64,000 bases of DNA, from contig JAJYUZ010000002.1 in assembly GCA_021792255.1 (NCBI GenBank), positions 224,001-288,000 on the forward strand. Reading direction: 5' to 3'. The notes under the pieces were generated by a model. That model was given only the letters and a program-made list of their open reading frames with translations, was not told the DNA's origin and ran no database searches. A program made the position numbers and the translations under genes. This document shows, piece by piece, positions 4,376 to 64,000 of the stretch; position 1 is the stretch's first letter, and every line of letters starts with the position of its first letter. The stretch comes from Thermoplasmata archaeon (GTDB taxonomy: Archaea > Thermoplasmatota > Thermoplasmata > Thermoplasmatales > GCA-001856825).

Positions 4376-4400
4376 TCCATACTGGGGTAGTGAACTAGTC

Positions 4401-5266: not shown

Positions 5267-5311
5267 GTTGGTGAGAATACGACTATCGATAGAGAAGAAG
5301 AACTTAGAAAG

Positions 5312-5641
5312 GTGTTAGTTGAATTTAGGGAAAAAGTGAATCAAAATGAAAAAGTCCAGAAGCTCATTAGGAAGTGGAGCACGTCAGTTCTGATGTGGAG
5401 CAAGGATCTGAATACTGGATTCGTTCTACAAGTAGAGTATGGAAAGATAACGGAAATGAAGAAAGCTGACAGTATCGATGAGGGCAACGTGAGAGTAGTG
5501 AGTGGCACGGAGACGTTGCTCGACATGTTCAGAGGGAAGGAGAACATAGTTCATCTTTATATGGATGGAGTTGTTGAAACATTTGGATCCGAAAAGGATC
5601 AGATAGTCTTAGATGCGGTGGCGAAGATTTTATGGTCTTAA
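5312..5641 (+). CDS. SCP2-like protein
   Basis: L.V..GKI...G..ETL.DMF.GK......Y..G.V...G pattern; start uncertain (frame open from 5267). Confidence 0.6.
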   Translation: MLVEFREKVNQNEKVQKLIRKWSTSVLMWSKDLNTGFVLQVEYGKITEMKKADSIDEGNVRVVSGTETLLDMFRGKENIVHLYMDGVVETFGSEKDQIVLDAVAKILWS

Positions 5642-50983: not shown

Positions 50984-50996
50984 ACTACCTGATTTT

Positions 50997-52181
50997 TTAG
51001 TGCCTTAAAGCAGTTTCTGAAGTGCTCCTAATGTCTCTCCCGTTGACGATGACCCTCTCTATAGGATCCTCTCCGAATGTGTACCCGAGCCTGTTGAAAT
51101 GGTCCTTAAGGACTATTATGTTCGCCTCCTTTCCCGGATGGATAGAGCCCGTCTTGTCGGATAGAGAAAGGGAATGGCTCGAATTGATTGTACTCATGTT
51201 GATCAGATTCTCTATGGTGAAGGGAAACAACTGTCTGCCTAAGGCAATAGCCAACGGGAAAGACGTGATGTAGGTGTTTGGCGATATATCAGAACCCATC
51301 GCAAGCACTTTCCCACGACTCTTCATTTTCGAAAATATGGATACCCCTTTCCTCAGACTGATGGCAGTGAAAGGAAGAACTGTTATCGTGCTCTCTATCA
51401 TATCAATCTCGTCTTCTCTTGTCTCTATCATGTGATCGTACGATCTGATGTCCAGACCTTTGAAGAGCTTCACTCCATCCAGATTGCGCAGCTCGTTGAG
51501 GTGGATCCGTCCCGGTACACCAAGGGAGTTTGCGTGTTGAATTGCTTCCTTGGCAAAAGGAGGAGAAAACGCGCCTTCATCGACGAAGACATCAACGAAA
51601 TCTATACGTTTCCTGAATTCTTCGGTCATTTCCATAAACGTCCTGAGGTAAGAGGCTTCACTCATCCCCTTGGGAATAACGTGAGCAAGGAGCGTCTTCT
51701 TCATTCTCATCTTGAGATCCTTTTCTATTCTCTCCATAACTTTGAGCATCTTCTCTTCTGTTTCTGCGTCACCGCCATAACCAGTTTTTGATTCGAATAC
51801 GGCGGTACCATTTCTCATCATGCTGAGGACTCTCTCTCTCGATTCCTGATAAAGAATATCCTCGTCGCATTCCGTGGTCGCCTTAATAGTGCGATAGATG
51901 CCCCCTCCGCTCTTCAGGACGCCCTCATATCCCAGGGTCTTCTTCAGGTCTATCTCGTTTTCCCTCGTTCCGCAGAAAACCACGTGTGTGTGGGGATCAC
52001 TGAATGCTGGAATGACCCATCTGCTTTCTTTAGGTCCACCGGACGTCGGAGTTATGCTCTCTATCAACCCATTGGTTATCCTGATGTCCTGGTGCTCCAG
52101 GAACTCTAGCTCGTCAAAAGAAGATCCCGATGCGAACTTTTTGTTAAACGGAGATGCTATGTTTACGTTCTCAACGAGCAT
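50997..52181 (-). CDS. hutI: Imidazolonepropionase-like amidohydrolase
   Basis: DPHTH..F.G.R..E, GGGI..T..AT, E.K.GYG, DVF...GAF, H..E, GSD..P. Confidence 0.8.
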   Translation of the reverse strand: MLVENVNIASPFNKKFASGSSFDELEFLEHQDIRITNGLIESITPTSGGPKESRWVIPAFSDPHTHVVFCGTRENEIDLKKTLGYEGVLKSGGGIYRTIKATTECDEDILYQESRERVLSMMRNGTAVFESKTGYGGDAETEEKMLKVMERIEKDLKMRMKKTLLAHVIPKGMSEASYLRTFMEMTEEFRKRIDFVDVFVDEGAFSPPFAKEAIQHANSLGVPGRIHLNELRNLDGVKLFKGLDIRSYDHMIETREDEIDMIESTITVLPFTAISLRKGVSIFSKMKSRGKVLAMGSDISPNTYITSFPLAIALGRQLFPFTIENLINMSTINSSHSLSLSDKTGSIHPGKEANIIVLKDHFNRLGYTFGEDPIERVIVNGRDIRSTSETALRH

Positions 52182-53130
52182 TATTCAGGTATAGGTCCCT
52201 GTAACAAGAATCTGCCGCTATGGCACCATCAGATGCTGCCACCACTATCTGTGCAAAGGATCCTGCCACGTCTCCTGCAGCATAAACCCTTTCCACATTG
52301 GTCCTGCCGCTTCTGTCTATTTTGATGTACCCTCTGTCTGTAACTTCCACTCCTAGGCTCTTAGAGAGTTCCGATTGAGGTTCCAGTCCAACATAAATGA
52401 ACACACCGTCAAAACTTTCTTCGTATTCCTTGCCATTAATCCTGTCCCTGAATTTTACGGTCTTGACCAGTCTTCCTTCTCCTTTAATTTCAATGACCTG
52501 AACGTTTTGTCTGTAATCAATCCCCATCGACTGTATCTGTTTGACGTACGCGTCTTCACACATGTACCTAGGCATAAATTCAAAGATCTTCACTTCAGAC
52601 ACTATGTTCTTCATAGAAATCGCGGCAATTGCCCCCGAATTTCCTCCTCCTATTACGAGTACCTTCTTGTTCTTGTAGAGCCAACCATCACAGGTGCTGC
52701 AGTACGAGACTCCCTTCCCGTAGTACTCTTTCTCTCCGGGAATGCCTAGGTGTTTGTGTTTCGTTCCAGTAGCGAAAATGATTGCCTTTGAATGGAATTC
52801 TCCCTTCTCGGTTTCCAGCAAAAATCCGTTCTCCTTTCTGATGGAAATTACCATGTTGTTGTCAACTATCTTGGTATAGTTTCGTGCGTGCTCCAGGAAC
52901 TCTTTTGCCAGATCAGTTCCCGCGATCTCGGTGAATCCGAGATAGTTCTCAACTAGAGGTGCTTCCAGCGTCAATCCCCCAGCCGTAGTTCCATCGATCA
53001 CGACGTTAGAGAGTCCTGCTCGAGTCGCATAGACAGCCGCAGAAAGCCCGGCTGCCCCAGCTCCTATAATGACAAGATCAAAGTCTCTTTTTTCTAACTC
53101 TTGTCTCTCTTCTCCTAAGATGAGCTCCAA
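52171..53130 (-). CDS. trxB: Thioredoxin reductase (Thermoplasma type)
   Basis: G.G.AG, ENY.G, GVSYCSTCDG, GGGNSG, AAGD; TTG start at 53130 after GGGGGA RBS. Confidence 0.92.
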   Translation of the reverse strand: MELILGEERQELEKRDFDLVIIGAGAAGLSAAVYATRAGLSNVVIDGTTAGGLTLEAPLVENYLGFTEIAGTDLAKEFLEHARNYTKIVDNNMVISIRKENGFLLETEKGEFHSKAIIFATGTKHKHLGIPGEKEYYGKGVSYCSTCDGWLYKNKKVLVIGGGNSGAIAAISMKNIVSEVKIFEFMPRYMCEDAYVKQIQSMGIDYRQNVQVIEIKGEGRLVKTVKFRDRINGKEYEESFDGVFIYVGLEPQSELSKSLGVEVTDRGYIKIDRSGRTNVERVYAAGDVAGSFAQIVVAASDGAIAADSCYRDLYLNNAR

Positions 53131-53143
53131 TAGGAATCCCCCT

Positions 53144-54793
53144 TTACATCGGAGGCATTCCGCCCATACCTTCAGGGCCACCCATTCCCGGAGGCATGCC
53201 TCCAGGCGGGCCCTCGCTCTTTGATTTCCTAGATGAGATTACGTCGTCAATCCTCAGTATCATTGTTGCGACTTCGGTTGCGCTTTCGATAGCGTGACTC
53301 TTCACTCTGACCGGCTCTAATACGTTCTTCTTGAAGAGATCGCCGACAGTTCCGTCCATCGCATCAATTCCCACATTCTTGTTTCCTGTCTGGTGTTCCG
53401 ATCTCAGTTTGAGCAGCGAATCAATTGGATCCATACCTGCGTTTTCAGCCAGAGTTCTAGGGACTATCTCGAGTGCATTTGCGAATGTTTCAATGGCCAG
53501 CTGCTCTCTTCCGCCCACAGTCGGGGCATACTTCTTTAGTTGATACGCTAGCTCTGCCTCTATCGCTCCTCCACCCGTCACAAAAGATTGATCCTCAATT
53601 GCCACACCTACTACCTTGAGTGCGTCGTGGAGTGCCCTTTCAACTTCGTCTATAGTGTGCTGCGTCCCTCCCCTTATAAGAATTGAAACCGCTTTAGGAT
53701 ACTTGCATCCGGTGATGAAAGTCAACTTGTCGTCCCCAATCTTTCTCTCCTCGGTCTTCTCTGCGTTTCCCAGATCTTTCGAAGTAAGATCATCAAGATT
53801 TGTAACGATCTTTGCCCCAGTTGCTTTTGCAATCTTTTCCATATCGCTCTTCTTGACTCTCCTGACCGCATATATGCCTTCCTTTGCAAGGAAGTGCTGT
53901 GCAAGATCGTCAACTCCCTTCTGGCTCATTAGAACGTTTGCGCCAGACTTCTTGACTTTATCTACCATCGCCCTGAGGGTTTCTTCTTCTTGGTCGAGGA
54001 ATGCCTGAATCTTGGATGGATCCGTAATTTGAACCTTGGCATCGATCTCAGTTTTCTTGATTTCCAGACCGGAATCGATAAGTGCTATCTTAGAGCTCTT
54101 AACTTCATTCGGCATTCTCGGATGAACCTTTTCTTTGTCTATGACAACTCCTTCTATTAGCTCAGAATCTGTGATTCCTCCCCCGAACTTTTTCTGGATG
54201 AGTATGTTGTCAACATCCACAATCTTTTTTCCGTCTCTCTCTTCGACGATACTCTTGACAGCCTTCATTGCCATCTTTGCAAGAAAATCGGTCACACCAC
54301 CAACGTTCTTTCCTGTCATAGCGGTCAGTGCAACGTTCTTAAGAACTTCATCACTAATTTTCTTCTCAGATATGCTAGACAGAATCTCAGCGGTCTTATT
54401 GGACGCCAACTTATATCCGTTGGCTATGACGGTTGGATGGACGTTCTGATCTAGTAATAGCTCAGCCTGTTTCAGTAATTCTCCGGCAATAACCACTGCA
54501 GTAGTCGTACCATCTCCCACTTCTTGATCCTGTCCTTTTGCAATTTCAATAATCATTTTTGCGGTGGGATGATCGACATCCATCTGCTTCATTATGGTAG
54601 CCCCATCATTAGATATGGTAATATCTCCCAGCGAATCTACTAACATCTTGTCCATTCCTTTCGGGCCAAGTGCCGATTTGACTGTATCTGCAATAGCCTT
54701 GGCGGCCTCAATATTATTTCTTTGAGCATCTTTTCCAGATTCCCTGGTCGAACCTTCTTTCAAAACTAGGATAGGGATTTGTCCCGATAACAT
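53144..54793 (-). CDS. thsA: Thermosome (group II chaperonin) subunit, alpha-like
   Basis: LGPKGMDKML, GDGTTT, RIDD, GGM-rich tail. Confidence 0.95.
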   Translation of the reverse strand: MLSGQIPILVLKEGSTRESGKDAQRNNIEAAKAIADTVKSALGPKGMDKMLVDSLGDITISNDGATIMKQMDVDHPTAKMIIEIAKGQDQEVGDGTTTAVVIAGELLKQAELLLDQNVHPTVIANGYKLASNKTAEILSSISEKKISDEVLKNVALTAMTGKNVGGVTDFLAKMAMKAVKSIVEERDGKKIVDVDNILIQKKFGGGITDSELIEGVVIDKEKVHPRMPNEVKSSKIALIDSGLEIKKTEIDAKVQITDPSKIQAFLDQEEETLRAMVDKVKKSGANVLMSQKGVDDLAQHFLAKEGIYAVRRVKKSDMEKIAKATGAKIVTNLDDLTSKDLGNAEKTEERKIGDDKLTFITGCKYPKAVSILIRGGTQHTIDEVERALHDALKVVGVAIEDQSFVTGGGAIEAELAYQLKKYAPTVGGREQLAIETFANALEIVPRTLAENAGMDPIDSLLKLRSEHQTGNKNVGIDAMDGTVGDLFKKNVLEPVRVKSHAIESATEVATMILRIDDVISSRKSKSEGPPGGMPPGMGGPEGMGGMPPM

Positions 54794-54848
54794 CTAAATT
54801 TCACCCTAAAACGGTAATTCGTTCTTCTATATAAATGTTGTAAGCTCA

Positions 54849-54899
54849 GGTTCTGTTAATATGACGGTTGATAAATTTGGTTGTAAATTTTCGGTTGGT
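54849..54899 (+). repeat. Degenerate direct repeat A starting GGTTCTGTT (IS6-end-like); partner at 59910-59960
   Basis: 37/51 identical, ungapped; first 11 nt identical. Confidence 0.6.
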
Positions 54900-55039
54900 G
54901 AAAAGTGCAAAAGGAAACACAATTTGATTCTAAAGATAGGAGGGGCAACAAAGTGCGTATAAATCTATCAGAAACAAAAAGTCAGGGGCTTGAGTGTGAT
55001 GTCTGCCGTTTTCACGACCGAATAATCAGGATGCACCTT

Positions 55040-55408
55040 TCATGACTTCGAACTTAGAGTATGTTCCTTGGCCCTCACTAAATGTTTCAGTTTTATGAAA
55101 TATAATATAGCAGTCAGTATACTGCCGACAATCATAGATATCTGAAATGCAGCCATAAAATGCTCTCCACCTACTACTTGTGGTGTATCGAAAATTTTGG
55201 GGTTTCCGTTGTAGATCACGGGAAGCTCCCAATAAGCATGGAAATATGTCTCAAGAATGTAATTCACTCCTGGAAGATAGCTGTAATGAGGAGGGCCTAA
55301 CCCAGTTGTATAGACGAAGTCCCACAGTGCCACCAGATAGTACAAGATAGCTCCCTCTACGACTGCAAAGATAACAGTAACACTTACTATTTTATGAGAG
55401 CTTTTCAT
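55040..55408 (-). CDS. Small 2-TM membrane protein downstream of the G1 peptidase
   Basis: Two hydrophobic segments around a Tyr/Pro-rich loop; ATG 4 nt after the peptidase stop. Confidence 0.7.
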   Translation of the reverse strand: MKSSHKIVSVTVIFAVVEGAILYYLVALWDFVYTTGLGPPHYSYLPGVNYILETYFHAYWELPVIYNGNPKIFDTPQVVGGEHFMAAFQISMIVGSILTAILYFIKLKHLVRAKEHTLSSKS

Positions 55409-55412
55409 AGTG

Positions 55413-56711
55413 TCAAGAGCCTGAGCTCCCATATAAGTTATACTTGGAGTTTACCCATGTCATATTCGGTTCCATATATCCGCTTTGAGTCGTGATTGCA
55501 TCATTTATGTTTTGATTCACATTTCCCCACGATTGATTTAGTATGTATTTGTTGTAATATCCATTGTTCAGCAATGTGTTAAGGTTGCTATAGCCATTAA
55601 TAGTCAGGACTGATGGTGAAACAAAGGTAACTGCAGGACTAAATACGGCCAGTTGTGAGATTACATAGATCCCAGATCCGGCTTGATCCGTTTCCGGTGT
55701 TTCTATAATATACTGTGCATACTTAGGCGAATTGTAATATGGAGTGGTAACAGTGTAGGTGTAATAATTGTTCAGAGTAATAGCGACATATGTCGCGATA
55801 TCATTCGAATTGTAGACTATTGAAAATTCTATGCTTGTTCCACTTGAAGGAGCTGGCATTCCAGGATACCCCCCGGAGTAGGCAGGCGATGTTCCATTAG
55901 ACCAAGTCTGGTACCATATAGTATATGCACCCCAGTTATATCCTCCAGTCCATGAATCATACCAGAAGATTCTTTGGAATCCCGTTTGTACTATGTTTGT
56001 AGCATTAGAATTGCTTGGATCGCTGCCTCCAACATATGGAGAGATGCCGATCCATCCGTTCATTGCTTCATTATATCCCGATGGATGGGAAGAAAGTGTT
56101 ATAGAAGGGATCGTAAGGGAAGCAGTATTCTGTGTTATAGAATAACTTGGATCGTAACACTCATATCCAGCCCAGTTTTCGTTGTATTGGGTGGTTGAAG
56201 AGTATACAATTGGCCCCACTGAGATTTCTGGACCGTAGACTGTCTCATTCAAAGAGGAGTATCCGTAGGTATAACAAGTCTGATTTACGTTCCCTTGTAC
56301 AGTCATAACAAGATAAACGTTGTAACTTTGGTTCACAAAGTCATAGCTTTCTCCTTGAGTAAAGTAGATTTCATTATACTGTTCGTAGGAATTATAACCT
56401 TCCTGAAAGACGGCGCTATTCTCGATGTCGTGAAGAGCTTCTATAGAATCTCTCTCCAACGCACTAAGGGAATTGCTATATTTGAAATTCCACTCGTGAC
56501 TTACTGCCACTTCTTCTATTGCCAGTACACTAGAATTTGTAACGCCATCAGAAAGCGAATTGAAATTCAGTAGCGCATTGTAAGAAGTTGAATGTAGCCC
56601 ACCCTGTACACCTTCGGTACTGCCGAGCAATGAAACATTGACAGAAAGCATGACTAAAGAAATAAAAATGCTTATCATCACTTTCTTCTTGAAATTTTTC
56701 ATATTATCCAT
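55413..56711 (-). CDS. Secreted glutamic peptidase, family G1 (eqolisin/peptidase A4-like)
   Basis: Signal peptide (KKK + hydrophobic), long pro-region, NWAGY, WIGI, VQTG (catalytic Gln), AQYIIETP (catalytic Glu), many N-x-S/T sequons. Confidence 0.8.
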   Translation of the reverse strand: MDNMKNFKKKVMISIFISLVMLSVNVSLLGSTEGVQGGLHSTSYNALLNFNSLSDGVTNSSVLAIEEVAVSHEWNFKYSNSLSALERDSIEALHDIENSAVFQEGYNSYEQYNEIYFTQGESYDFVNQSYNVYLVMTVQGNVNQTCYTYGYSSLNETVYGPEISVGPIVYSSTTQYNENWAGYECYDPSYSITQNTASLTIPSITLSSHPSGYNEAMNGWIGISPYVGGSDPSNSNATNIVQTGFQRIFWYDSWTGGYNWGAYTIWYQTWSNGTSPAYSGGYPGMPAPSSGTSIEFSIVYNSNDIATYVAITLNNYYTYTVTTPYYNSPKYAQYIIETPETDQAGSGIYVISQLAVFSPAVTFVSPSVLTINGYSNLNTLLNNGYYNKYILNQSWGNVNQNINDAITTQSGYMEPNMTWVNSKYNLYGSSGS

Positions 56712-56955
56712 CCAAAATGACTATATTTCCATATCACTTAACCTTACCGGAGAATTAATTCAAAATAAGTGAATTAACTACCTTTAATCACTTAAAGTCG
56801 ACAAAAAGTTGTAAATATCGCTTCCTAAGACAATGGGTTTATTCAGACACACTTTTAGACTCTATAGTGTCGGGTTAAATCTTAAATGGTTTAGCAGGAA
56901 TATTCTTTGCAGATCGTTAGAATTTGATATTTAGTACTCGCTTTCTGGGACTACA

Positions 56956-57048
56956 ACTATCACCATTTTGTTATCACTAATTTGGACTGAAGGAAAAGCA
57001 ACGGTTGAATTGGACGATTGAAGTTAAAGATAACAAAATGGTGATAGT
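56956..57048. repeat. Perfect 20-bp inverted repeat with 53-nt spacer (MITE-like)
   Basis: actatcaccattttgttatc (56956-56975) and gataacaaaatggtgatagt (57029-57048) are exact reverse complements. Confidence 0.85.
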
Positions 57049-57195
57049 AATAACTCTTGAAATTACTTAGTTGATAGCCCTTAGCTCGTAACTTTGAGTT
57101 GATGGCTCTAAGCAGGTACTCTATTTTTCTAGGAACTTTGGAAAAATGAAAGAATTGAAAAAGAAATAAATAAAGTATAAAAATGAATCTTATCG

Positions 57196-59047
57196 TCAGG
57201 TCTTTATGTCTAGTAAGAAGCCGTTATCTATGAAATCATTAACCCCGTTTGTCACCACATCAAACACTTTGATTTGTTTTTCGACCATACTCACGGTAGA
57301 AACGTTAACCCAAGTGTTATTTACTGGATTGAACAGTTGATCTCCAACAGTGAGATTTTCAGGGTTTTTCAGCCAACCCGTAAAGGTGGAGTTTCTGATG
57401 TAAATGGGTTGATCAGTTGGGGTCAATAACAATGCGCCGCCATTTACGATTACCTCTTGAGATACTTCTGTCTTGTTGTTAAATAGAAGAGTTCCTATGA
57501 ACATACTTCCATTTTGAAGATTATACTCTTCAACTTTTCCCCCCTGTTTCAGGTCTTGAATTGGTATATAACCGTTTGGCGTCAGGATTAGACTTCCCCA
57601 GGCAACACAGCCTCCTCCAGAAGTAGAGACATCAACATAGAATTGACTTTGTGTGACGGAATAGTCATCAGTTACCGACATTGTAAGTCGATAACTTCCA
57701 GTGCTTGCACTACTCGGAACCTCAATATTGACGTAGAAAGAGAATGGCGGAGACCCGCTTGAAGGCACAAAGCCATAAGTCCAGCCATTAGGGAGGTTTA
57801 CCATACTGAGAAAGACATCACTGCCTCCACTATACGCCTGGTAGGTATTTCCATATATCTCGACGCCTGAGCCAGGAGAGACAGCTGTAGAACCTAGGTA
57901 GCCCGCGCCAAGATCCACTCCGATAGTGGACAAGAACCATTCATTGGCAATAGTTACATCGTTTCCGCTCGTTAGGACTCTAGTTGTGATATTTGATGGC
58001 AGCGGACCCGTAGAAAAGGCTGACCAACCAGATTCCGTATTCCCAGTAAAATTAAAGTTCCAATACGGCCAGTACTGAGTTGTGGTATCGTACACCTCTT
58101 CCCAGTCCGTGTAATCATAATATCCATCATACGTTGACTGTGCTACGAATTCAGTCCCTCCTGTATGATACCACTTTATAAAGATAGGATAGGGATTTAC
58201 GCCTTGTCCTGTGTATGCTGAAAACTCTACTGTGCCATTGCTATTCGTGCTCATTACAAAGGTATAATATTGGTTTTCTTCAAGGTTGTAAGCGTCAGGA
58301 TTGTAGACATAAGTTTGATTGGTCCATCCAACGGACCAAGTTAGCCCCCAAGAACCATAATCTCCAGAGAAACCAATCTGGTCATACGCATTGCTGTTAT
58401 CCCAAATGGAGAGGATTACATAATAGAAATCTGTTGGGGCCTGAATTCGATTCTGGGGTTAATATGGTGACCTGTACCTGAGTGAGCGTGGTTGAACCTC
58501 CCCATGATGCCCCTTCCACATATGAAACATTGGAAGAGTATCTAGGAGGAAAAGAGGCAGACGGAAAGCTGGCATTACTAGACACCGAAACTTTGTGCAT
58601 GGTAGGAGGAGGTAGGTTTCCGCTGTACGTACTGGGCGATGTGATATAATACTTGATAATAAGTAAAGTTACTTCTTTAGTACCTGACCATTCAATACCG
58701 ACGTAATTGTCTGGAGAGAGCCAAGTCTTAAGAGATGGGCTCGGTATACCACTGATGGATATAGAATAATTTGTTCCATTCGTTTCAACCACCCAACCCT
58801 TCAATCCCGTACCTGCAGGAGAATATAGGTTGACTCCAAATAATGTAAAACTCACAAAGTGAAAGATGAAAGTTTGTGTGGAAGTGGTATTCCCTCCGAG
58901 GAAAGATAATGCAAGAGTTACATTTTCAGAAAAATAGTTATTGAGATTCGGAGTGGCCCGATCGTTCGAATAAAGCGCTAAGCTCATAGAAGACGTTGCA
59001 GTTATAATAGAAACTATTATCACAAGACTTTTTAAGTTCATGTTCAA
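57196..59047 (-). pseudogene. Secreted protein with C-terminal Hint domain, split by a 1-nt frameshift near 58436-58458 (ORFs 58397-59047 and 57196-58254)
   Basis: Upstream ORF has a signal peptide; the downstream frame is open from 58458 (PTDFYYVILSIWDNSNAYDQIGF...) through to GGG|CVAWGS...LLDIKT; ~616 aa if repaired. Confidence 0.8.
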
Positions 59048-59085
59048 ACATCTCCTGCTTTAAATGAGTTGAACACATTTTACCG

Positions 59086-59106
59086 TTTCCCAGACAGTCT
59101 GGGAAA
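59086..59106. promoter_or_regulatory. Palindromic operator 1 between divergent Hint-protein and regulator genes
   Basis: TTTCCCAGAC-A-GTCTGGGAAA perfect inverted repeat just upstream of a TATA-like TTAAATA. Confidence 0.85.
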
Positions 59107-59137
59107 TCATTAAATACGGTTTATTTCTGGTATAGTT

Positions 59138-59668
59138 GTGAGGAAGGACGGCCTAGTCTTGGTTATCACGATAGGTATCTCTCTTGCGAACTCCATATTC
59201 TCAATAGTTTTCGTTTTGCTAATTCTCACTTCAAATATTCCACCAGTTAAGGGGTCGCCTGGAATGGTAAAGGTACCTGGTTATTCAGTTGCAGCAATTC
59301 CAATTTCAACTGCGGCACTTGGTTGGTTAATTATCTGCTATGAATTGATATCGCATAGAAAGAACGATATTTCGAAGATTCTGAGGAAAAGACTATCAGA
59401 AAAATGGGATAACCGAGCACTGTACGATGCATTTAGGGGGAGGGGCGGACCGAGAAGGCTTTCAATAATGGAGAGCTTGGGTACACCGAAGATGAGAAAT
59501 GAAATAGCCCAGCTCACTGGCACTGACTGGAAAGAGGTCGATAGGAATATAAGAATTCTTGAGTCAATTGATTTAGTAAGAATACAATACAACCACGGCA
59601 CGGTATCAGTATACGAATTAACTGGTAAAGGAAAAGAGTTCCTGAACCTTGTCGAAACAGAGATTTAG
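59138..59668 (+). CDS. Membrane-anchored (2 TM) ArsR-like winged-helix regulator
   Basis: Two N-terminal hydrophobic helices, then G..R..I...L..P....EIA......K.V...I..LE...LV......Y.LT.KG. Confidence 0.85.
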   Translation: MRKDGLVLVITIGISLANSIFSIVFVLLILTSNIPPVKGSPGMVKVPGYSVAAIPISTAALGWLIICYELISHRKNDISKILRKRLSEKWDNRALYDAFRGRGGPRRLSIMESLGTPKMRNEIAQLTGTDWKEVDRNIRILESIDLVRIQYNHGTVSVYELTGKGKEFLNLVETEI

Positions 59669-59909
59669 GCTCGGGCGTTTCGTTAAGGGGTTTCGCACGC
59701 TACTCTGTCACCTCCATTTGTTCGCTTTGAATGTACATTGTTGTAAGGGCCCAAGTGCAAGTCTTATGATAATCTAGACAACGGAGGATCTTTAGGTACT
59801 GCGCAACATACTTCTCTATTACCGTATCTTAATACAAACTTACTCAGCTCTTATCTCATAAGTTGATTTCCTATTAAATTAAGGGTGATACATGTCACAC
59901 CCGAAACAG

Positions 59910-59960
59910 GGTTCTGTTAACTTGCTGGATGCTGGACATGGTTGTTAATTATCGGATGCT
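59910..59960 (+). repeat. Degenerate direct repeat B (partner of 54849-54899)
   Basis: ggttctgttaacttgctggatgctggacatggttgttaattatcggatgct aligns ungapped with copy A. Confidence 0.6.
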
Positions 59961-60338
59961 ACCAAAGACATTAAAATTCGGATCTTAACCATAGAAACTA
60001 AGACAAGGCACTGGTTTAAATCATCAAAGATGTTTTGATTTTTAGACCAATTTTAAGAAAGGCAAATAATGAGCTCATCAGAAAGAGACCAATTTCTAAA
60101 GAAGAGTGATTCGTTGGTTTTGGCAGAGTTAGGAATATCAGCCTATAGGTCCCTAGTATTTACCGTCGTAAATCTCTCAATCACTATTTCAACAGCAAAG
60201 TCTTCACTGATGACTGGAACTGCGACAACATTTCTAACCATTCCTCTCGTATTCGATTTACTTGTTATTTCCTTTTGACGAGCACTAAGAGAGATAATTA
60301 GACTGAATGCTAAAACTGATTGATTTCTTCTTGTTGGC

Positions 60339-60650
60339 TTAACTGTAGCTAATTCTGCGATGTATCACTAGGACTACACCAGTTGCAGGGAGCAGGAATA
60401 TCAAGAAATCTAAAAATAATGCGAGAAAATCTATAACCCCTATGGTAAAGATAGCGTGATTGCCTTGATAAATTCCCCAAGCATAAGGAAAAGGAAAACC
60501 TCTCTGCCAGGTTGTCCAGAGAATCCCGGCTGTATGAACTACTTTAAAGTAGAGATAGCTGAGCAATGTTAGTCCCACTGAGATTAGAACAGAATATATG
60601 GTCAGCAAGAATGCCCTCCTATACTCTGTTTTTATCATTTTAACCTCCAC
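60339..60650 (-). CDS. Small 2-TM membrane protein downstream of the S53-Hint peptidase
   Basis: Two hydrophobic segments around a RGFPFPY loop; likely ATG at 60638 after GGAGGT. Confidence 0.75.
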   Translation of the reverse strand: MEVKMIKTEYRRAFLLTIYSVLISVGLTLLSYLYFKVVHTAGILWTTWQRGFPFPYAWGIYQGNHAIFTIGVIDFLALFLDFLIFLLPATGVVLVIHRRISYS

Positions 60651-60665
60651 GCCTCCTTTAATCTC

Positions 60666-62894
60666 TCAAGTCTTCACATCCAAAAGTATTCCATTAGCAA
60701 TGTAGCTGCTTCTGAGATATCCATCTTGGTAGAACAATTTGGACCCTTGGATGTCATAAACAGTGAAATTTCCATTGGTCATCTGTATTGAAGTGACTTG
60801 TATCCAAGTGTTATTTAAAGGATCAAATATGGCGTCTGATGTATTCAGATAACCGACCATTATCCATTCTACTGTTCCGTTTGAAAGTTTTACATAGATG
60901 GGTTGATCGCGTGCACCTGAAACGAACAGTAATCCGTTATCAATATTGATTATTGAATTTACGTTTGTGACATTAATTTCAGTAACTTCCTCTTCAACAA
61001 AGTTGCCTCCGATTGGATCATAGGAAAGTATTTGATCTCCCACTTTTAGATCTTGAACTTGGATGGTCTTGTTCAAAGAAGTCTGAATAAGAGTTCCATT
61101 CAAAACACAACCGCCACCACCTCCACTTGAGGTATAATAGTTGCGAAGGGCTTGAACAAAATTATATGCATTAACGCTGCCAATGCCAGTAACATAATCC
61201 CATCCGCTTCCCGCCGACATTCCGTTATTTCCAGTTGTTATGTCCGTGTATGCTCCTGACGAGTAGCCTATGCTGTAAATCCCTTTATTTATGAAACCGT
61301 AAACATCCCCCGTCCCATTGAGGTAAGTATCAGCTATTATACCTGCCATCATTGGAGTAGCGTAACTAGTACCATCTACACCGCCATAGAAGGTGCCATC
61401 GAAGTATACCACGATAGATGGCGCCGCGGCAAAAGAGATGTCCGGAATGTCTCTGTACCCATTGTTAGGCGCAACGCCACTTTGGTATGAAGGTTGGGAG
61501 AATATGGGATTATTAGTCACGTATCCTCTTCCACTTCCACTCCAGCCACTTTGGCCGCTGATATCTGAACTCGTCAAAGATAAAGTTACACCTCCAACTG
61601 CTATTGAGTTAGGGTCCAATGCAACCATATCTATGTTATTGCCACTTGACGAGTATCCATTGTCTCCTGTGGCAGCCACAATCGTAATTCCTTCAGTAGT
61701 TGCCTGAGCAAGAAAATCATGGATATTATCAACTTCGCTAGTACTTATGGAGTTGTAAGTTGGCGCAATGCTAAAGCTCATCACAACGGGAACTAAAGTA
61801 TTGACCATATAACTAAGCTCTTGATCAAATTCGTATTCGAATCCAGTATCCCCTCCAGATGGAGCGCTATAAATGACATCGTCGATAGTGGCGCCTGGAG
61901 CAATAGTACCTGCCCACTCAACGTCAAGAGTCTCCTCTAGACTAGCTCGATTATTCCCCCACGGTGGTAGCCCTCCTCCACCGATTATTATTTGCGTATC
62001 GGATGGATAATAACTCTGACCATTGTAGGTGTATTTTATGTTGTAATGTTCCCAGAAATTTTGGGGATCTGTCCCGTAATACCTCCAGTCAGGATAACCT
62101 ATCAATCCAATTGTTATCCACTTTCCATCATACCCATTTTGTAATAAAGGAGTAATATTGAAGTATGGGTTTATATCATAGGGGTTTGCCGTTAGCACTG
62201 TCTGTCCTGGTAAGCCCCCATAGACTTGATCCCACTCAGTATAAACAAATGGAGTATTATTTACTAACTCAGCTCCGTAATCGTTTAGACCACTGATTGT
62301 AGTTATCTCGTTGACTATGTTGTTTGGAATAATGGGATCATTGGAATTTGCATAAAAGTAGGTTCCATTGAGTTCATAATTGATCAAGGTAATTCTCAAT
62401 AATTGTTCCACGAATCCAGCTGTCTCTTCAAAGGAGATTTCTCTTCCGTTAGAGAAATTCATTTCTTTCACTCCAGAAGAACTCAGCCAGTCCTCCACAG
62501 AACTTATCGCGCCTGCCATTGGTCCAAATTTTGACATGAACTCAGATGGAGTCAAGAACTTGTGAAAGAGGCTGCTGCTTGTATTTGAAACTAACTGCGA
62601 ATAACTCGTTGCTGCAGAAATATCAATCGAAAGATATATTTCCAAAGATAGTTCAGTAGTATTGTTCAGTTGAGATAGGTCCATAGCTTGGGAAAGAAAA
62701 GGAAGAGTATCATTCAATGGCACTTCTAGTACCTCGTTTACCATGGGTGGGGTGCTTGTTCCGTCTAAATAGGATATCCCAGCTATTGAGGAGCTAGATA
62801 ACAAACTGAAAGAAATCGCTGATACGAGAACAAAAAGTCCGTACTTTTCAAAAATAGCTTTTACTAGGACTCTGAAATTCATACTTTGTATCAT
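60666..62894 (-). CDS. Secreted S53 (sedolisin/kumamolisin) peptidase with C-terminal Hint domain
   Basis: Signal peptide, pro-domain (FLTP.EF...FGP), E.TLDVE, A.GD.G, GTS.ATP, DIT.GNN and GWD.VTG.GS; then GGGGG|CV..GT.I...VYD...YIANG.LLDVKT. Confidence 0.92.
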   Translation of the reverse strand: MIQSMNFRVLVKAIFEKYGLFVLVSAISFSLLSSSSIAGISYLDGTSTPPMVNEVLEVPLNDTLPFLSQAMDLSQLNNTTELSLEIYLSIDISAATSYSQLVSNTSSSLFHKFLTPSEFMSKFGPMAGAISSVEDWLSSSGVKEMNFSNGREISFEETAGFVEQLLRITLINYELNGTYFYANSNDPIIPNNIVNEITTISGLNDYGAELVNNTPFVYTEWDQVYGGLPGQTVLTANPYDINPYFNITPLLQNGYDGKWITIGLIGYPDWRYYGTDPQNFWEHYNIKYTYNGQSYYPSDTQIIIGGGGLPPWGNNRASLEETLDVEWAGTIAPGATIDDVIYSAPSGGDTGFEYEFDQELSYMVNTLVPVVMSFSIAPTYNSISTSEVDNIHDFLAQATTEGITIVAATGDNGYSSSGNNIDMVALDPNSIAVGGVTLSLTSSDISGQSGWSGSGRGYVTNNPIFSQPSYQSGVAPNNGYRDIPDISFAAAPSIVVYFDGTFYGGVDGTSYATPMMAGIIADTYLNGTGDVYGFINKGIYSIGYSSGAYTDITTGNNGMSAGSGWDYVTGIGSVNAYNFVQALRNYYTSSGGGGGCVLNGTLIQTSLNKTIQVQDLKVGDQILSYDPIGGNFVEEEVTEINVTNVNSIINIDNGLLFVSGARDQPIYVKLSNGTVEWIMVGYLNTSDAIFDPLNNTWIQVTSIQMTNGNFTVYDIQGSKLFYQDGYLRSSYIANGILLDVKT

Positions 62895-62914
62895 GGCATC
62901 CAGTTCATTTATTG

Positions 62915-62937
62915 ATTTCCCAGAATTTCTGGGAAAT
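62915..62937. promoter_or_regulatory. Palindromic operator 2 between divergent S53-Hint and regulator genes
   Basis: ATTTCCCAGAA-T-TTCTGGGAAAT perfect inverted repeat just upstream of TTATATATA. Confidence 0.85.
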
Positions 62938-62968
62938 TGTTATATATAGATTACCGCTAATTTGAGCA

Positions 62969-63742
62969 ATGGGAAAAAGAAACTACGTCATTATTCTTCT
63001 ACTCACGTTATCAATAGTTAGTTCTGCATATTCCGTATTTCTTTTCCTAAGTTCATATTTTTCTCAGTCCATTTTTTTTGTTTATACTTCTAAGGCAATC
63101 CTAGCATATCCATATAACATACTTCCTGTATCCTCCGCAATGTTCGGCTGGGTCTTGTTAAGTTATCAACTGATTTACAATAATAGGAGACATATTGCTA
63201 CAATTATTAGAAAAGAGATTTCTGGTAAGTCAGATGATTGGACTATTTATTATGCCTTTAAGGGCAAAGGAGGTGCAAGGAGACTAACGATAATGGAAGC
63301 CCTAACCTCACCCAGACTGAGGAACGAAGAGGAAATGCTTAGGGAACTAGAACTCCCATACAGAGTCGTGATGCTGAGTTCAGGAGATATGGGTGTCAGA
63401 GATTTCAAGCAGTTAGATCTTGAGGTATTCATGCCCTACCAGGCAAAGTACAGGGAAGTAATGTCCAACGACAACTGTACGGACTGGATATCCAGGAGAT
63501 CTGGCATTAGACTTACTGACGCAGAAGGCAACAAGATCTTCGCTCATACAGTAGACGCAACAGGACTTGCAATTCAACGTACCATCAAGTCTATACTGGA
63601 AGTACACCAGAGGAAAGACGGGACTGTCCGTGTACCTGAGCCCTTGGTGAAGTTTACGGAATTCTCGACCATCAGAACAAGGATAAGAAATAAAGATGTG
63701 TTGACCCTTGATGATCAGCAGTCTTGGGATTCAATTCTTTGA
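62969..63742 (+). CDS. Chimeric ORF: truncated paralog of the 2-TM wHTH regulator fused in frame to a seryl-tRNA synthetase-like C-terminal fragment
   Basis: Residues 1-120 align with 59138-59668 up to RNE; then LELPYRVV...GD.G....Q.DLEV.MP.Q..YREV.S..NCTD...RR..IR...HT....LA..RT...ILE..Q..DG.V.VP..L. Confidence 0.85.
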   Translation: MGKRNYVIILLLTLSIVSSAYSVFLFLSSYFSQSIFFVYTSKAILAYPYNILPVSSAMFGWVLLSYQLIYNNRRHIATIIRKEISGKSDDWTIYYAFKGKGGARRLTIMEALTSPRLRNEEEMLRELELPYRVVMLSSGDMGVRDFKQLDLEVFMPYQAKYREVMSNDNCTDWISRRSGIRLTDAEGNKIFAHTVDATGLAIQRTIKSILEVHQRKDGTVRVPEPLVKFTEFSTIRTRIRNKDVLTLDDQQSWDSIL

Positions 63743-63999
63743 TACAGGACGTAAAATTTCCTATCGTTGAAATAGAACCTGACTATTCTGTAGCCCTTGA
63801 AAAAAGTCCTCAATTCCCTCTCTGTAAAGTAGTGATAATAGCTGCCGTCCTTATGGATGTATGTTCCTCTCTCTGATGTGCGGGTTTGACCCCAGTGCTT
63901 TCTCTGTGACCATATAGTCCTTTGGTCGCTCTCCAGGTACAGGTACCCTCTCAACCTCGTAACTCTTCTGATCTCTTCAATGTCCTCTCTGATTCGTTG
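63715..63999 (-). CDS. 3' part of a probable class I SAM methyltransferase (runs off the window edge)
   Basis: Frame open to the edge: EEIRRVTRLRGYLYL ... HYFTERELR..F.GY. Confidence 0.55.
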   Translation of the reverse strand, partial: QRIREDIEEIRRVTRLRGYLYLESDQRTIWSQRKHWGQTRTSERGTYIHKDGSYYHYFTERELRTFFKGYRIVRFYFNDRKFYVLYQRIESQDC

Positions 64000-64000
64000 A

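What the first reader, a model, noticed from the sequence alone, without database searches (positions are those of the whole stretch)
54849..63328. Candidate new system: repeated modules of secreted peptidase-Hint protein, palindromic operator and membrane-anchored wHTH regulator
Seen: the same architecture occurs twice. A secreted protein with a C-terminal Hint domain (57196-59047; 60666-62894) lies head-to-head with a 2-TM wHTH paralog (59138; 62969) across the same palindrome. The passenger domains are unrelated (G1-like versus S53), while the Hint, operator and regulator are homologous. A G1 peptidase and two small membrane proteins complete the island. Inference: a modular, membrane-sensed secretion system in which a shared autoprocessing tail releases or covalently anchors interchangeable acid proteases, for nutrition or inter-microbial antagonism. 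I do not recognise a described archaeal system with this layout.
Basis: partly seen in the sequence, partly recalled or inferred. Interest (0 to 1): 0.9.

Follow-up and report, generated by a model that had tools for sequence, protein, structure and literature searches.

The report
Acid-protease island with self-cleaving Hint tails
A strain-specific gene island of an acid-mine archaeon carries secreted acid proteases, two of them ending in an intein-like self-cleaving tail, next to rare membrane-anchored regulators with a conserved DNA operator; tail and regulator are separate modules that meet here, not one conserved system.

Summary
The features are real, but two are broken. The first Hint gene (57196-59047) carries a frameshift near 58440. 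The second regulator (62969-63742) loses its DNA-binding helix and is fused to a foreign seryl-tRNA-synthetase fragment. Contigs of 4 runs from 3 studies reproduce both defects.

The palindrome TTTCCCAG-N5-CTGGGAAA occurs exactly twice in the 1.59-Mb genome, once between each divergent gene pair.

The proposed linkage does not hold elsewhere. Of 31 homologous Hint-tail ORFs in 29 loci from 25 other genomes, 28 have at least 800 nt upstream. Only one, a same-genus orthologue, has the regulator and palindrome.

- **Regulator:** a rare family (37 proteins in 5.8 billion). It keeps the palindrome at its own promoter in 7 loci, but the partner varies: Hint-tailed peptidase-like genes, a 255-270-aa secreted protein, or an amino-acid permease.
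- **Hint tail:** a large Thermoplasmatota family (292 representatives at E<=1e-30). It always sits at the protein's end, starts with an invariant Cys after a Gly run, and usually has Gln where inteins have the block-B His. Its nearest solved relative is a bacterial intein-like domain.

Verdict: a 10.6-kb island of secreted acid peptidases that combines two independent modules. It is a new variant of known kinds and moderately interesting.

The parts
54849..54897 (.). Left edge of the strain-specific island, and copy 1 of a 49-nt direct repeat (73% identical to 59910-59958)
   Evidence: DNA homology to 5 of 5 same-genus genomes stops at about 54840-54860. The repeat was found, and there are only these two copies in the genome. 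Its role is unexplained.
55040..55432 (-). 130-aa small membrane protein (2 hydrophobic segments); overlaps the end of the G1 peptidase gene by 20 nt
   Evidence: There is no Pfam hit above cut-off and one paralogue on C11.
55413..56711 (-). 432-aa secreted G1 (eqolisin / Peptidase_A4)-type peptidase with an N-terminal hydrophobic segment
   Evidence: The protein itself has no Pfam hit. A 56%-identical relative, P0199, hits PF01828 at E 2.9e-9, which is 1 of 5 family members. Atlas feature score is 0.94, and the structural match to an aspergillopepsin-2 cluster has TM 0.71 by row.
56956..57048 (.). 28-nt inverted repeat (89% complementary, 37-nt loop) between the G1 gene and the first Hint gene. 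Homology to the G385 module begins inside it, at 56981.
57196..59047 (-). Frameshifted gene for a secreted protein: signal segment, N-domain, concanavalin-like core with conserved DQ[IV]G and YEEV motifs, Ig-like domain, then Gly linker and C-terminal Hint domain (57199-57609). The frame breaks near 58440.
   Evidence: The intact 614-aa orthologue is in G385, and NCBI names it 'Hint domain-containing protein'. The break is reproduced in contigs of 4 runs.
59086..59106 (.). Operator palindrome A, TTTCCCAGACAGTCTGGGAAA, 3 nt upstream of the TATA-like TTAAATA of regA
59138..59668 (+). regA: intact 176-aa regulator with two N-terminal TM segments and a C-terminal ArsR-like winged helix
   Evidence: Pfam HTH_20, HVO_A0114 and HTH_45 match at E 0.014-0.028, below cut-off. 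23 of 33 family members hit HTH_45. The family has 37 proteins.
59910..59958 (.). Copy 2 of the 49-nt direct repeat. It starts where homology to the G385 module ends (59909).
60339..60650 (-). 103-aa small membrane protein, 15 nt downstream of the S53-Hint gene
   Evidence: No Pfam hit.
60666..62894 (-). Intact 742-aa secreted pro-sedolisin (S53) with a GGGGG linker and C-terminal Hint domain (60669-61109; Cys596 is its first residue)
   Evidence: Pro-kuma_activ at E 2e-22 and Peptidase_S8 at E 2.8e-7. Kumamolisin-As at E 5e-16, with ExxxD, GDxG and GTS stretches aligned. The Hint domain is shown.
62916..62936 (.). Operator palindrome B, TTTCCCAGAATTTCTGGGAAA, lying between TATA-like boxes of both divergent genes
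62969..63742 (+). regB chimera: regulator residues 1 to ~120 (TM segments and the start of the winged helix, no recognition helix) fused in frame to the C-terminal ~135 residues of a foreign seryl-tRNA synthetase (about 63329-63739)
   Evidence: The serS part is at most 45% identical to serS in 20 relatives and 37% identical to the genome's own serS. The junction is reproduced in 4 runs.
63715..64000 (-). Start of the rest of the island (cut by the window end): SAM-methyltransferase gene, then a free-standing ThrRS editing domain and a DtxR-type repressor, up to about 65480

Best explanation
Window 54850 to about 65480 is a ~10.6-kb strain-specific, lower-GC island in an acid-mine Thermoplasmatales genome. 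It gathers genes for secreted acid peptidases and is partly decaying. Two independent modules meet in it.

**Module 1: a terminal Hint tail.** Inferred sequence of events: after Sec export, the ~140-aa C-terminal Hint domain makes an N-to-S acyl shift at the Gly|Cys1 junction. The resulting thioester is then resolved, most likely by water, so that the passenger is freed and the tail discarded. No splicing is possible, because nothing follows the domain and its end lacks His-Asn. The passengers here are an S53 sedolisin and a concanavalin-like, glutamic-peptidase-like protein. This tail belongs to a large Thermoplasmatota family found on many different secreted passengers.

**Module 2: a rare membrane-tethered regulator.** It is an ArsR-like winged-helix protein with 2 TM segments. 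Inferred: it binds as a dimer to the 8-5-8 palindrome that abuts the TATA/BRE region of its own promoter and of the divergent gene, and so controls both. Across genomes the regulator keeps its operator while the partner gene changes: Hint-tailed peptidase-like proteins, a 255-270-aa secreted protein, or an amino-acid permease. This points to a regulon for extracellular protein and amino-acid nutrition.

In this genome only regA and the S53-Hint gene are intact. Because the two operators have identical half-sites, regA probably serves both promoters.

Shown: anatomy, homologies, distribution, and the conserved operator position. Inferred: cleavage chemistry, DNA binding, direction of regulation, and the signal sensed.
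For: **Island**
- In 4 of 4 same-genus genomes examined, the thermosome gene is directly followed by the orthologues of window-coordinate genes 65484-67273.
- DNA homology stops at about 54850 in 5 of 5.
- GC is 0.39-0.41 inside against 0.46-0.48 in the 6 kb before.
- Window 56981-59909 is 84.5% identical to a block in G385 that sits elsewhere, beside IS66- and IS240-type transposase genes.

**Hint tail**
- A profile of 21 domains hits the bacterial intein-like domain 2lwy_A at E 6.2e-10. Inteins are further down the list.
- Invariant in those 21: Cys1, Gly24, Gln-Pro (aligned to the H-P of 'DHP' in 2lwy), Trp102, Val117 and Gly140; Asp119 and Asn139 are conserved in at least 90%.
- In 1.84 billion representatives there are 292 hits at E<=1e-30.
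- Among the best 150: 168 of 168 domain starts are Cys, and GGG precedes in 94. The tail after the domain is 0-4 residues in 141 of the 151 domain ends listed's cut tally. Block B is [DENK]QP in 141 of 169 domains and [DEN]HP in 21.
- Passengers of 21 full-length relatives differ: CarboxypepD_reg in 9, Pro-kuma_activ in 2, DUF2341 in 2.

**Regulator**
- 37 proteins in 5.8 billion sequences.
- 23 of 33 hit HTH_45.
- The stretch TDWKEVDRNIRILES is nearly invariant.
- The palindrome lies just upstream of the regulator's TATA-like box in 7 loci: regA, regB, G385, LL2.bin60, G303, G297 and L105.
- Partners: Hint-tailed genes or their remnant in 4 loci, and a 255-270-aa secreted protein in 3.
- The regC type has only a half-site or none, and sits beside an AA_permease gene in 3 genomes.

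**Both defects are real.** Contigs of 4 runs from 3 studies cover both sites with 0 differences.
Against: - No biochemical evidence exists for cleavage. The block-B His, important in most inteins, is Gln in both window copies, so activity could be weak or absent.
- The AlphaFold model of the full orthologue is poor over the Hint part (pLDDT below 50), so the fold was not confirmed by structure.
- Window proteins score below Pfam cut-offs for the Hint and HTH families.
- No DNA-binding or expression data exist, and no RNA run holder was listed.
- The three regA/Hint loci are orthologous, so the two Hint-regulator pairings in this window are the only independent cases. That could still reflect a local functional tie.
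- Several fetched loci end at contig edges.
- One Hint gene and one regulator are broken, so part of the island may be non-functional.
Confidence: 0.6

Rival explanations
1. One reading: Hint tail, palindromic operator and 2-TM regulator form one dedicated, modular system that senses at the membrane and releases or anchors interchangeable acid proteases.
For: - Two pairings with unrelated passengers lie 3.8 kb apart in this window.
- The regA/Hint pair moves as a unit: an 84.5%-identical block sits in another context in G385, beside transposase genes.
Against: - The regulator was found at 1 of 29 loci around 31 homologous Hint ORFs in 25 other genomes, even at E<=10, and the palindrome at that same single locus.
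- Only 5 of 401 genomes of the class have a full-length regulator, against 44 of 401 with a Hint match.
- Regulators with the operator face non-Hint partners in 3 of 7 loci.
Confidence: 0.08
2. The Hint tail does not merely release the passenger. Its thioester is attacked by a cell-surface nucleophile (a membrane lipid, glycolipid or surface protein), which ties the passenger's C-terminal glycine covalently to the envelope. This would be the Hedgehog cholesterol-transfer principle used as a sortase-free anchor in an archaeon that appears to lack archaeosortase.
For: - Strict terminal position, invariant Cys1 and a Gly-rich junction.
- Passengers are surface-type or secreted domains.
- No Exosortase_EpsH match in this 93.6%-complete genome, while the control genome rings.
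- Neither passenger shows another anchor beyond the N-terminal segment.
Against: - The domain ends the protein within 0-4 residues, so there is no adduct-recognition region like the sterol-recognition region of Hedgehog (feature as described in passages of PMC7765530).
- No acceptor is known.
- Secreted digestive peptidases work well when released.
- The absence of archaeosortase in an incomplete genome is weak evidence.
Confidence: 0.17
3. The tail is a degenerate, non-catalytic Hint fold kept as a binding, folding or oligomerisation module. It stays attached to the passenger.
For: - The block-B His is replaced by Gln in 141 of 169 domains.
- There is no His-Asn at the end.
- Pfam Hint models score below cut-off on the window proteins.
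Against: - Cys is the first residue in 168 of 168 domains, and it follows a flexible Gly run. That is hard to explain without chemistry at that bond.
- 21 of 169 domains keep His at the same place, so Gln and His look interchangeable there.
- Recalled, not read here: inteins lacking the block-B His are known to splice by compensating residues.
Confidence: 0.13
4. The repeated layout is only a decaying remnant of horizontally acquired DNA and has no present function.
For: - The first Hint gene is frameshifted.
- The same gene is frameshifted and has lost its Hint part in LL2.bin60.
- regB is truncated and fused to a foreign serS fragment.
- The region is strain-specific, with low GC.
Against: - S53-Hint, regA, the G1 peptidase and both small membrane-protein genes are intact.
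- The S53 catalytic stretches are conserved.
- Both operators are perfect palindromes.
- The sequence is held unchanged in runs of 3 studies.
Confidence: 0.12

Closest known systems
Bacterial intein-like (BIL) domains, e.g. the solved domain 2lwy
   Same: - It is the best solved match (E 6.2e-10).
- Both are small Hint domains without an endonuclease, with a Cys1 nucleophile.
- Both sit in variable secreted or surface proteins.
- N-terminal autocleavage is expected. BIL types and their cleavage are as described in passages of PMC7765530.
   Different: - This family is archaeal and lies at the very end of the protein, with nothing downstream.
- The block-B His is mostly Gln.
- The C-terminal motif is ANGxLLDxK, not His-Asn.
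Hedgehog/Hog C-terminal autoprocessing domain
   Same: The layout is the same: signal peptide, passenger, Gly|Cys junction, then a C-terminal Hint that removes itself through a thioester.
   Different: - There is no sterol-recognition region after the Hint (0-4 residues follow).
- No evidence exists for an adduct.
- Sequence similarity is closer to BIL domains and inteins than to Hog (one search lists no Hedgehog chain).
Inteins
   Same: Both belong to the same superfamily. Pfam Intein_splicing and Hom_end_hint hit 2 and 1 of 21 relatives.
   Different: There is no C-extein and no terminal Asn, the domain is not inserted in a conserved host protein, and splicing is impossible.
PT-HINT of bacterial polymorphic toxins
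   Same: There are weak Pfam PT-HINT matches (E 0.02 and 0.0027). Both occur on secreted multidomain proteins.
   Different: PT-HINT precedes a C-terminal toxin domain (recalled). Here nothing follows the Hint, and there is no immunity-like gene pattern.
ArsR/SmtB-type winged-helix repressors, and membrane-tethered one-component regulators of the ToxR/CadC kind
   Same: - The winged helix resembles ArsR-type proteins (6cda_A E 0.14; HTH_45 in 23 of 33).
- It has a palindromic operator at its own promoter.
- The DNA-binding domain is tethered to the membrane, as in ToxR/CadC (recalled analogy).
   Different: - The TM segments are N-terminal, with only about 15-30 residues outside the cell, and no periplasmic sensor domain.
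- The family is confined to Thermoplasmatota metagenome and MAG records and is uncharacterised.
Sedolisin (S53, kumamolisin) and G1 eqolisin acid peptidases
   Same: - S53: the pro-domain and catalytic stretches align with kumamolisin-As.
- G1: the 432-aa protein is tied to Peptidase_A4 through a close relative.
   Different: A Hint tail on a sedolisin was not found in the literature searches. The first Hint protein's passenger could not be placed in G1.

Membership tests
HINT superfamily (BIL-like autoprocessing domain) | Significant sequence similarity to known Hint domains | tested here: met
   The A4 profile hits 2lwy_A (bacterial intein-like domain) at E 6.2e-10, the Spl DnaX mini-intein at 1.4e-5 and MJ0781 at 3.7e-5. 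The single window proteins are below Pfam cut-offs.
HINT superfamily (BIL-like autoprocessing domain) | Nucleophile (Cys/Ser/Thr) as first residue of the domain | tested here: met
   Cys in 21 of 21 aligned domains and in 168 of 168 domain starts among the 150 best representatives.
HINT superfamily (BIL-like autoprocessing domain) | Block B Thr-x-x-His | tested here: not met
   Both window copies have D-Q-P where 2lwy has D-H-P. Gln is at this place in 141 of 169 domains and His in 21. The Thr is not conserved.
HINT superfamily (BIL-like autoprocessing domain) | Horseshoe Hint fold | tested here: inconclusive
   The full-length model has pLDDT below 50 over most of residues 474-614.
HINT superfamily (BIL-like autoprocessing domain) | Autocatalytic cleavage | not testable with these tools
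   Needs protein expression and mass spectrometry.
Intein | C-terminal His-Asn followed by a C-extein nucleophile; splicing of two exteins | tested here: not met
   The proteins end LLD[IV]KT directly after the domain. The tail is 0-4 residues in 141 of the 151 domain ends listed's cut tally.
Hedgehog/Hog domain | Sterol/adduct-recognition region C-terminal to the Hint module | tested here: not met
   Nothing follows the Hint module. The feature is as described in passages of PMC7765530.
PT-HINT polymorphic toxin | Toxin domain downstream of the Hint | tested here: not met
   The Hint is the last domain.
Peptidase S53 (sedolisin) | Pro-kumamolisin activation domain plus catalytic domain with the Glu/Asp, Asp and Ser stretches | tested here: met
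   PF09286 at E 2e-22, above cut-off. The alignment to kumamolisin-As keeps E-x-x-L-D-[VI]-E, G-D-x-G and G-T-S. The assignment of these stretches as catalytic is recalled.
Peptidase G1 (eqolisin, Peptidase_A4): 432-aa protein 55413-56711 | Match to PF01828 / G1 fold | tested here: inconclusive
   The protein itself has no hit. 1 of 5 family members (56% identical) hits PF01828 at E 2.9e-9. The Atlas structural match to an aspergillopepsin-2 cluster has TM 0.71 by row and 0.45 by query.
Peptidase G1: passenger of the first Hint protein | Match to PF01828 / G1 fold and a Gln-Glu dyad | tested here: inconclusive
   - 0 of 10 members hit PF01828.
- hhalign to the 432-aa protein's family gives probability 0.2%.
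- The core model (pLDDT 59) gives a concanavalin-like sandwich. The best match is 8pmu_A (Z 8.4, rmsd 4.3, 147 aligned), then neprosin 7zvc_A (Z 6.9) and aspergilloglutamic peptidase 1y43_B (Z 6.0, rmsd 4.3, 111 aligned), among many lectins and glycosidases.
- Conserved DQ[IV]G and YEEV motifs are only a lead.
Winged-helix (ArsR/HTH_45-like) transcription regulator | Match to wHTH profiles | tested here: met
   At family level, HTH_45 matches 23 of 33, DUF505 24 of 33 and HVO_A0261_N 13 of 33. regA itself matches only at E 0.014-0.028, below cut-off. The PDB ArsR match has E 0.14.
Winged-helix (ArsR/HTH_45-like) transcription regulator | Binding to the palindrome | not testable with these tools
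   Inferred from the conserved position next to the regulator's TATA-like box in 7 loci.

The most novel reading that the evidence does not exclude
The terminal Hint tail of Thermoplasmatota is a sortase-independent device for covalent attachment. The Gly-Cys thioester would be resolved by an envelope nucleophile (a tetraether lipid or glycolipid head group, or a surface protein), fixing secreted enzymes by their C-terminal glycine to the surface of cells that lack a wall and archaeosortase. The Gln-for-His change in block B would be an adaptation of the chemistry. That would be a prokaryotic counterpart of Hedgehog lipidation.
Probability: 0.15. Interest if true: 0.85.

Novelty: new variant of a known kind. 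Interest (0 to 1): 0.42.

Why it matters
Two points would interest specialists.

1. A large family of Hint domains is apparently undescribed in print. It sits at the very end of secreted archaeal proteins and mostly lacks the canonical block-B histidine while keeping Cys1. If the domain is active, this widens the known chemistry of the intein/Hedgehog fold and could supply acid-tolerant self-cleaving tags. It also raises the question of how wall-less acidophiles release or anchor exoenzymes.

2. A small family of membrane-tethered winged-helix regulators has a clearly conserved operator. That is a ready-made case for studying archaeal one-component control of extracellular proteolysis and amino-acid uptake.

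Tried and rejected
- **Rfam and tRNA scans.** An Rfam scan of 54000-64000 gave only two sub-threshold chance hits, and there are no tRNA genes in 50000-64000. No integration-site tRNA was seen.
- **The 49-nt direct repeat (54849 / 59910).** It has no further copies in the genome. It lies at the island's left edge and at the end of the G385-homologous block, but I could not show that it is an att-like site.
- **Third partial palindrome.** The site inside the S53 gene (62049-62067, 2 mismatches) and the 1-mismatch site at C6:356657 were taken as chance.
- **Structure.** The full 614-aa orthologue gave pLDDT 45.6, and its fold search was filled by the Ig-like domain 365-475. The 208-aa core gave pLDDT 59.1 and only middling, non-discriminating Z scores. 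No statement on the G1 fold is made from these beyond 'concanavalin-like'. No model of the Hint domain or of the regulator was made.
- **Profile comparison.** The first passenger against the 432-aa G1 family showed no relation.
- **Small membrane proteins.** The 103-aa and 130-aa proteins are not detectably alike (E 0.5), and no homologues lie beside Hint genes elsewhere.
- **Recurrent neighbours elsewhere.** The recurrent 250-290-aa neighbours of Hint genes in other genomes, and the 255-270-aa partner of the G303/G297 regulators, have no homologue in this genome.
- **Expression.** No RNA holder was listed. Contigs cannot show expression.
- **Literature.** Four full-text searches and a term search in the review PMC6098224 ('hint' 0, 'intein' 0) found no description of archaeal C-terminal Hint tails or of this regulator. 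I saw only search listings and abstracts for those searches, and passages of PMC7765530. Subscription journals are not covered, and supplementary files were not consulted.

Full report
**1. What is in the sequence**

The window is contig C6:224001-288000 of a 1.59-Mb, 11-contig genome that is 93.6% complete. Record titles of near-identical relatives call them Thermoplasmatales or Thermoplasmata archaeon MAGs. The DNA is held in mine-drainage, sediment and mine-tailings metagenome runs of 3 studies.

Between 54849 and the window end, one search lists these genes, in order:
- a 130-aa membrane protein (55040-55432, minus strand)
- a 432-aa secreted protein (55413-56711, minus)
- two adjacent minus-strand ORFs (57196-58254 and 58397-59047)
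- a 176-aa plus-strand ORF (59138-59668), here called regA
- a 103-aa membrane protein (60339-60650, minus)
- a 742-aa ORF (60666-62894, minus)
- a 257-aa plus-strand ORF (62969-63742), here called regB

**2. Check of the observation**

The two long minus-strand proteins end in homologous ~140-aa domains (32% identity, E 2e-16; alignment A1). The two plus-strand proteins are homologous over their first ~120 residues (35%, E 5e-25). Each has N-terminal hydrophobic segments.

The palindrome TTTCCCAG-N5-CTGGGAAA lies at 59086-59106 and 62916-62936.
- In the window, the pattern with up to 2 mismatches occurs 3 times against 0.28 expected, and 0 of 100 shuffles reach 3.
- In the whole genome the only two exact sites are these. 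One further site has 1 mismatch, and the reversed control pattern has none.

Three things differ from the description.

First, 57196-59047 is not one reading frame. The signal-bearing N part and the Hint-bearing C part are in different frames. Alignment with the intact 614-aa orthologue of the same-genus genome G385 shows one extra base near 58440.

Second, regB stops resembling the family after '...PRLRNE', before the recognition helix. It continues in frame as the last ~135 residues of a class-II seryl-tRNA synthetase (PF00587, E 3e-8). That fragment is at most 45% identical to the serS of any of 20 relatives and 37% identical to the genome's own serS on C11.

Third, both defects are real features of this population rather than slips of one assembly. 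Logan contigs of 4 runs from 3 studies cover both places with 0 differing letters and 0 gaps. Several of those samples may be the source of the MAG; run X9 is not flagged as such.

**3. The region is a strain-specific island**

DNA homology to all 5 same-genus genomes searched covers the thioredoxin-reductase and thermosome genes and stops at about 54850.

In 4 of 4 of those with the contig fetched, the thermosome gene is followed within a few hundred bases by the orthologues of genes that lie at 65484-67273 in window coordinates. About 10.6 kb is therefore extra here.

GC is 0.39-0.41 inside, against 0.46-0.48 just before.

The right part of the island, beyond the window, holds a methyltransferase gene, a free-standing ThrRS editing domain and a DtxR-type repressor.

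The block 56981-59909 (first Hint gene, palindrome, regA) is 84.5% identical over 2,934 nt to a block in G385. There it sits in another context, next to IS66- and IS240-type transposase genes. So that pair moves as a unit within the genus.

In a third genome (LL2.bin60, L104), the regA orthologue and palindrome are intact. The Hint gene there is frameshifted and has lost its Hint part.

**4. The Hint tail**

A profile of 21 domains (A4) finds the solved bacterial intein-like domain 2lwy_A at E 6.2e-10. Hint domains of ADP-ribosyltransferase toxins and several mini-inteins come lower in the list.

Invariant residues are Cys1, Gly24, Gln-Pro, Trp102, Val117 and Gly140; Asp119 and Asn139 are conserved in at least 90%. 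In the alignment to 2lwy, the Gln stands where that domain has the His of 'DHP', which is the block-B histidine.

Against 1.84 billion representatives, the profile finds 6,991 proteins at E<=1e-3, 1,073 at <=1e-10 and 292 at <=1e-30. Among the best 150:
- Every one of 168 domain starts is Cys, preceded by GGG in 94.
- The protein ends 0-4 residues after the domain in 141 of the 151 domain ends listed's cut tally.
- Block B reads [DENK]QP in 141 of 169 domains and [DEN]HP in 21; 7 have neither.
- 7 of the 150 proteins carry 2-6 copies.

In the class, 44 of 401 genomes have a match at E<=1e-3. In a phylum sample, 14 of 301 have one at E<=1e-15, including families of other classes.

Passengers of 21 full-length relatives differ:
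- CarboxypepD_reg-like repeats in 9
- the pro-kumamolisin domain in 2
- DUF2341 in 2
- Intein_splicing or Hom_end_hint over the tail in 3

Of 117 representatives that start with Met and are at least 300 aa long, 75 have an N-terminal hydrophobic segment by a crude hydropathy test.

NCBI already labels the G385 protein 'Hint domain-containing protein'.

Mechanism (inferred from the established chemistry of the superfamily, as summarised in passages of PMC7765530): an N-to-S acyl shift occurs at Gly|Cys1, and the thioester is then resolved. With no downstream extein and no terminal His-Asn, splicing and Asn cyclisation are excluded. The outcome is removal of the tail from the passenger. Whether water or another nucleophile resolves the thioester is open.

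**5. The passengers and other peptidases**

The 742-aa protein is a pro-sedolisin.
- Pro-kuma_activ matches at E 2e-22 and kumamolisin-As at E 5e-16.
- The E-x-x-L-D-[VI]-E, G-D-x-G and G-T-S stretches align. Their catalytic role is recalled, not tested.

The 432-aa protein gives no Pfam hit itself. Its 56%-identical relative hits Peptidase_A4 at E 2.9e-9, which is 1 of 5 family members. The Atlas points the same way.

The passenger of the first Hint protein has only 11 relatives. None hits Peptidase_A4, and it shows no profile similarity to the 432-aa family. Its models are weak.
- The core looks like a concanavalin-type sandwich. Glutamic peptidases (neprosin Z 6.9; aspergilloglutamic peptidase Z 6.0) appear among many lectins and glycosidases.
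- Its conserved DQ[IV]G and YEEV motifs resemble the Gln/Glu dyad of G1 enzymes as I recall them.
- 'G1-like' therefore stays a lead.

Each of the three intact or once-intact secreted peptidase genes examined is followed within 20 nt by a gene for a 98-130-aa protein with 2-3 hydrophobic segments. The three are the 432-aa G1, the S53-Hint and a G1 paralogue at C6:295632-296852. These small proteins are not detectably related to one another.

**6. The regulator and its operator**

The family is small: 37 proteins at E<=1e-3 in 5.8 billion, all 108-257 aa. In the class, 5 of 401 genomes hold full-length copies.

It is a winged helix. HTH_45 matches 23 of 33 members, and DUF505 matches 24 of 33. 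The stretch TDWKEVDRNIRILES is almost invariant.

Upstream sequences show the same palindrome, 2-4 nt before a TATA-like box about 22-28 nt ahead of the start codon. It occurs in 7 loci:
- regA
- regB
- G385
- LL2.bin60
- G303 (TTTCCCAGAGGTTCTGGGAAA)
- G297 (TTTCCCATAGAATATGGGAAA)
- the metagenome locus L105

The divergent partner varies.
- It is a Hint-tailed gene or its remnant in 4 of these loci. Three of those are orthologous.
- It is a 255-270-aa secreted protein without Hint or Pfam match in 3.

The third paralogue of this genome (C6:336630-337181) and its orthologues in G385 and G381 sit beside an amino-acid permease gene. They have only a half-site or none.

The operator therefore belongs to the regulator, not to the Hint genes.

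Read directly, the palindrome lies between the two divergent TATA-like boxes. A bound dimer would touch the BRE/TATA region of the regulator's own promoter and lie at or just upstream of the partner's. The direction of control cannot be told.

**7. Test of the proposed linkage**

I fetched up to ±9 kb around 29 strong Hint places in 25 other genomes of the class.
- Of 31 Hint ORFs found there, 28 have at least 800 nt of upstream sequence.
- A regulator HMM of 3 sequences (E<=1e-3) and one of 33 sequences (E<=10) each hit exactly one ORF, the same-genus orthologue in L034.
- The palindrome occurs only there too.

In several other genomes the Hint gene is instead followed by a 250-290-aa single-TM protein, which is absent here.

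**8. Reading**

The island is best seen as a horizontally acquired, partly eroded set of extracellular acid-peptidase genes. Two separable modules coincide in it: a widespread terminal Hint tail, and a rare membrane-tethered regulator with its operator.

In this genome the intact regulator (regA) stands next to the broken Hint gene. The intact S53-Hint gene stands next to the broken regulator. Since both operators share identical half-sites, regA plausibly serves both promoters.

The company of peptidases and an amino-acid permease suggests control of protein and amino-acid nutrition. The signal is unknown, and the extracellular loop is only about 15-30 residues long.

**9. Comparison and novelty**

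The tail works like BIL or Hog domains but fails two classical features: the block-B His and a C-terminal His-Asn or adduct region. It is archaeal and strictly terminal.

I found no paper describing it or the regulator. The library does not cover subscription journals, and supplements were closed.

It is a new variant of known kinds. The boldest reading still open is covalent surface attachment through the thioester. That fits the lack of an archaeosortase match but has no direct support.

**10. Limits**
- There are no expression data and no biochemistry, and the models are weak.
- Many MAG contigs are short.
- Same-genus loci are not independent.

Noticed in passing
window 62969-63742: regB is an in-frame chimera of a truncated regulator and the C-terminal ~135 residues of a seryl-tRNA synthetase. 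The serS part is at most 45% identical to serS of 20 relatives, so the fragment comes from a distant donor. The genome's working serS is on C11.
   Followed up: partly
window 55040-55432, 60339-60650; G000:C6:295329-295625: Three secreted acid-peptidase genes of this genome are each followed within 20 nt by a gene for a 98-130-aa protein with 2-3 hydrophobic segments. The small proteins show no detectable similarity to each other. They could be membrane partners, anchors or protectors of the peptidases.
   Followed up: partly
window 59524-59563: The 40 nt that encode the regulator's recognition helix are also held by a contig with 5- to 10-fold higher depth and different flanks in all 4 runs laid. 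A more abundant community member therefore carries a paralogous regulator with an identical stretch.
   Followed up: no
P0050-P0053, P0070, P0191; G629:C62, G493:C18: Some Thermoplasmatota proteins carry 2-6 internal copies of this Hint domain in ORFs of up to about 3,500 aa. They look like polyproteins that might cut themselves into several pieces.
   Followed up: no
L036, L045, L046, L050, L052 and others (downstream of the Hint genes): In other genomes the Hint-tailed gene is often followed on the same strand by a 250-290-aa protein with one N-terminal TM segment and many N-glycosylation-type motifs. At least 5 form one family, with 3 weaker relatives. There is no homologue in this genome.
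   Followed up: partly
window 54849-54897 and 59910-59958: A 49-nt direct repeat (73% identical) has only two copies in the genome. One lies exactly at the island's left edge, the other exactly where homology to the G385 module ends. Its meaning is unknown.
   Followed up: partly
L104 (LL2.bin60) 4272-5458: The orthologue of the first Hint gene is also broken in a third genome: it is frameshifted and lacks its Hint part. The neighbouring regulator and palindrome stay intact there, so this gene decays repeatedly.
   Followed up: yes
window-coordinate 64500-64922 (G000:C6:288500-288922): A free-standing archaeal ThrRS editing domain (PF08915, E 5e-26) is encoded inside the island, next to the serS fragment.
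   Followed up: no
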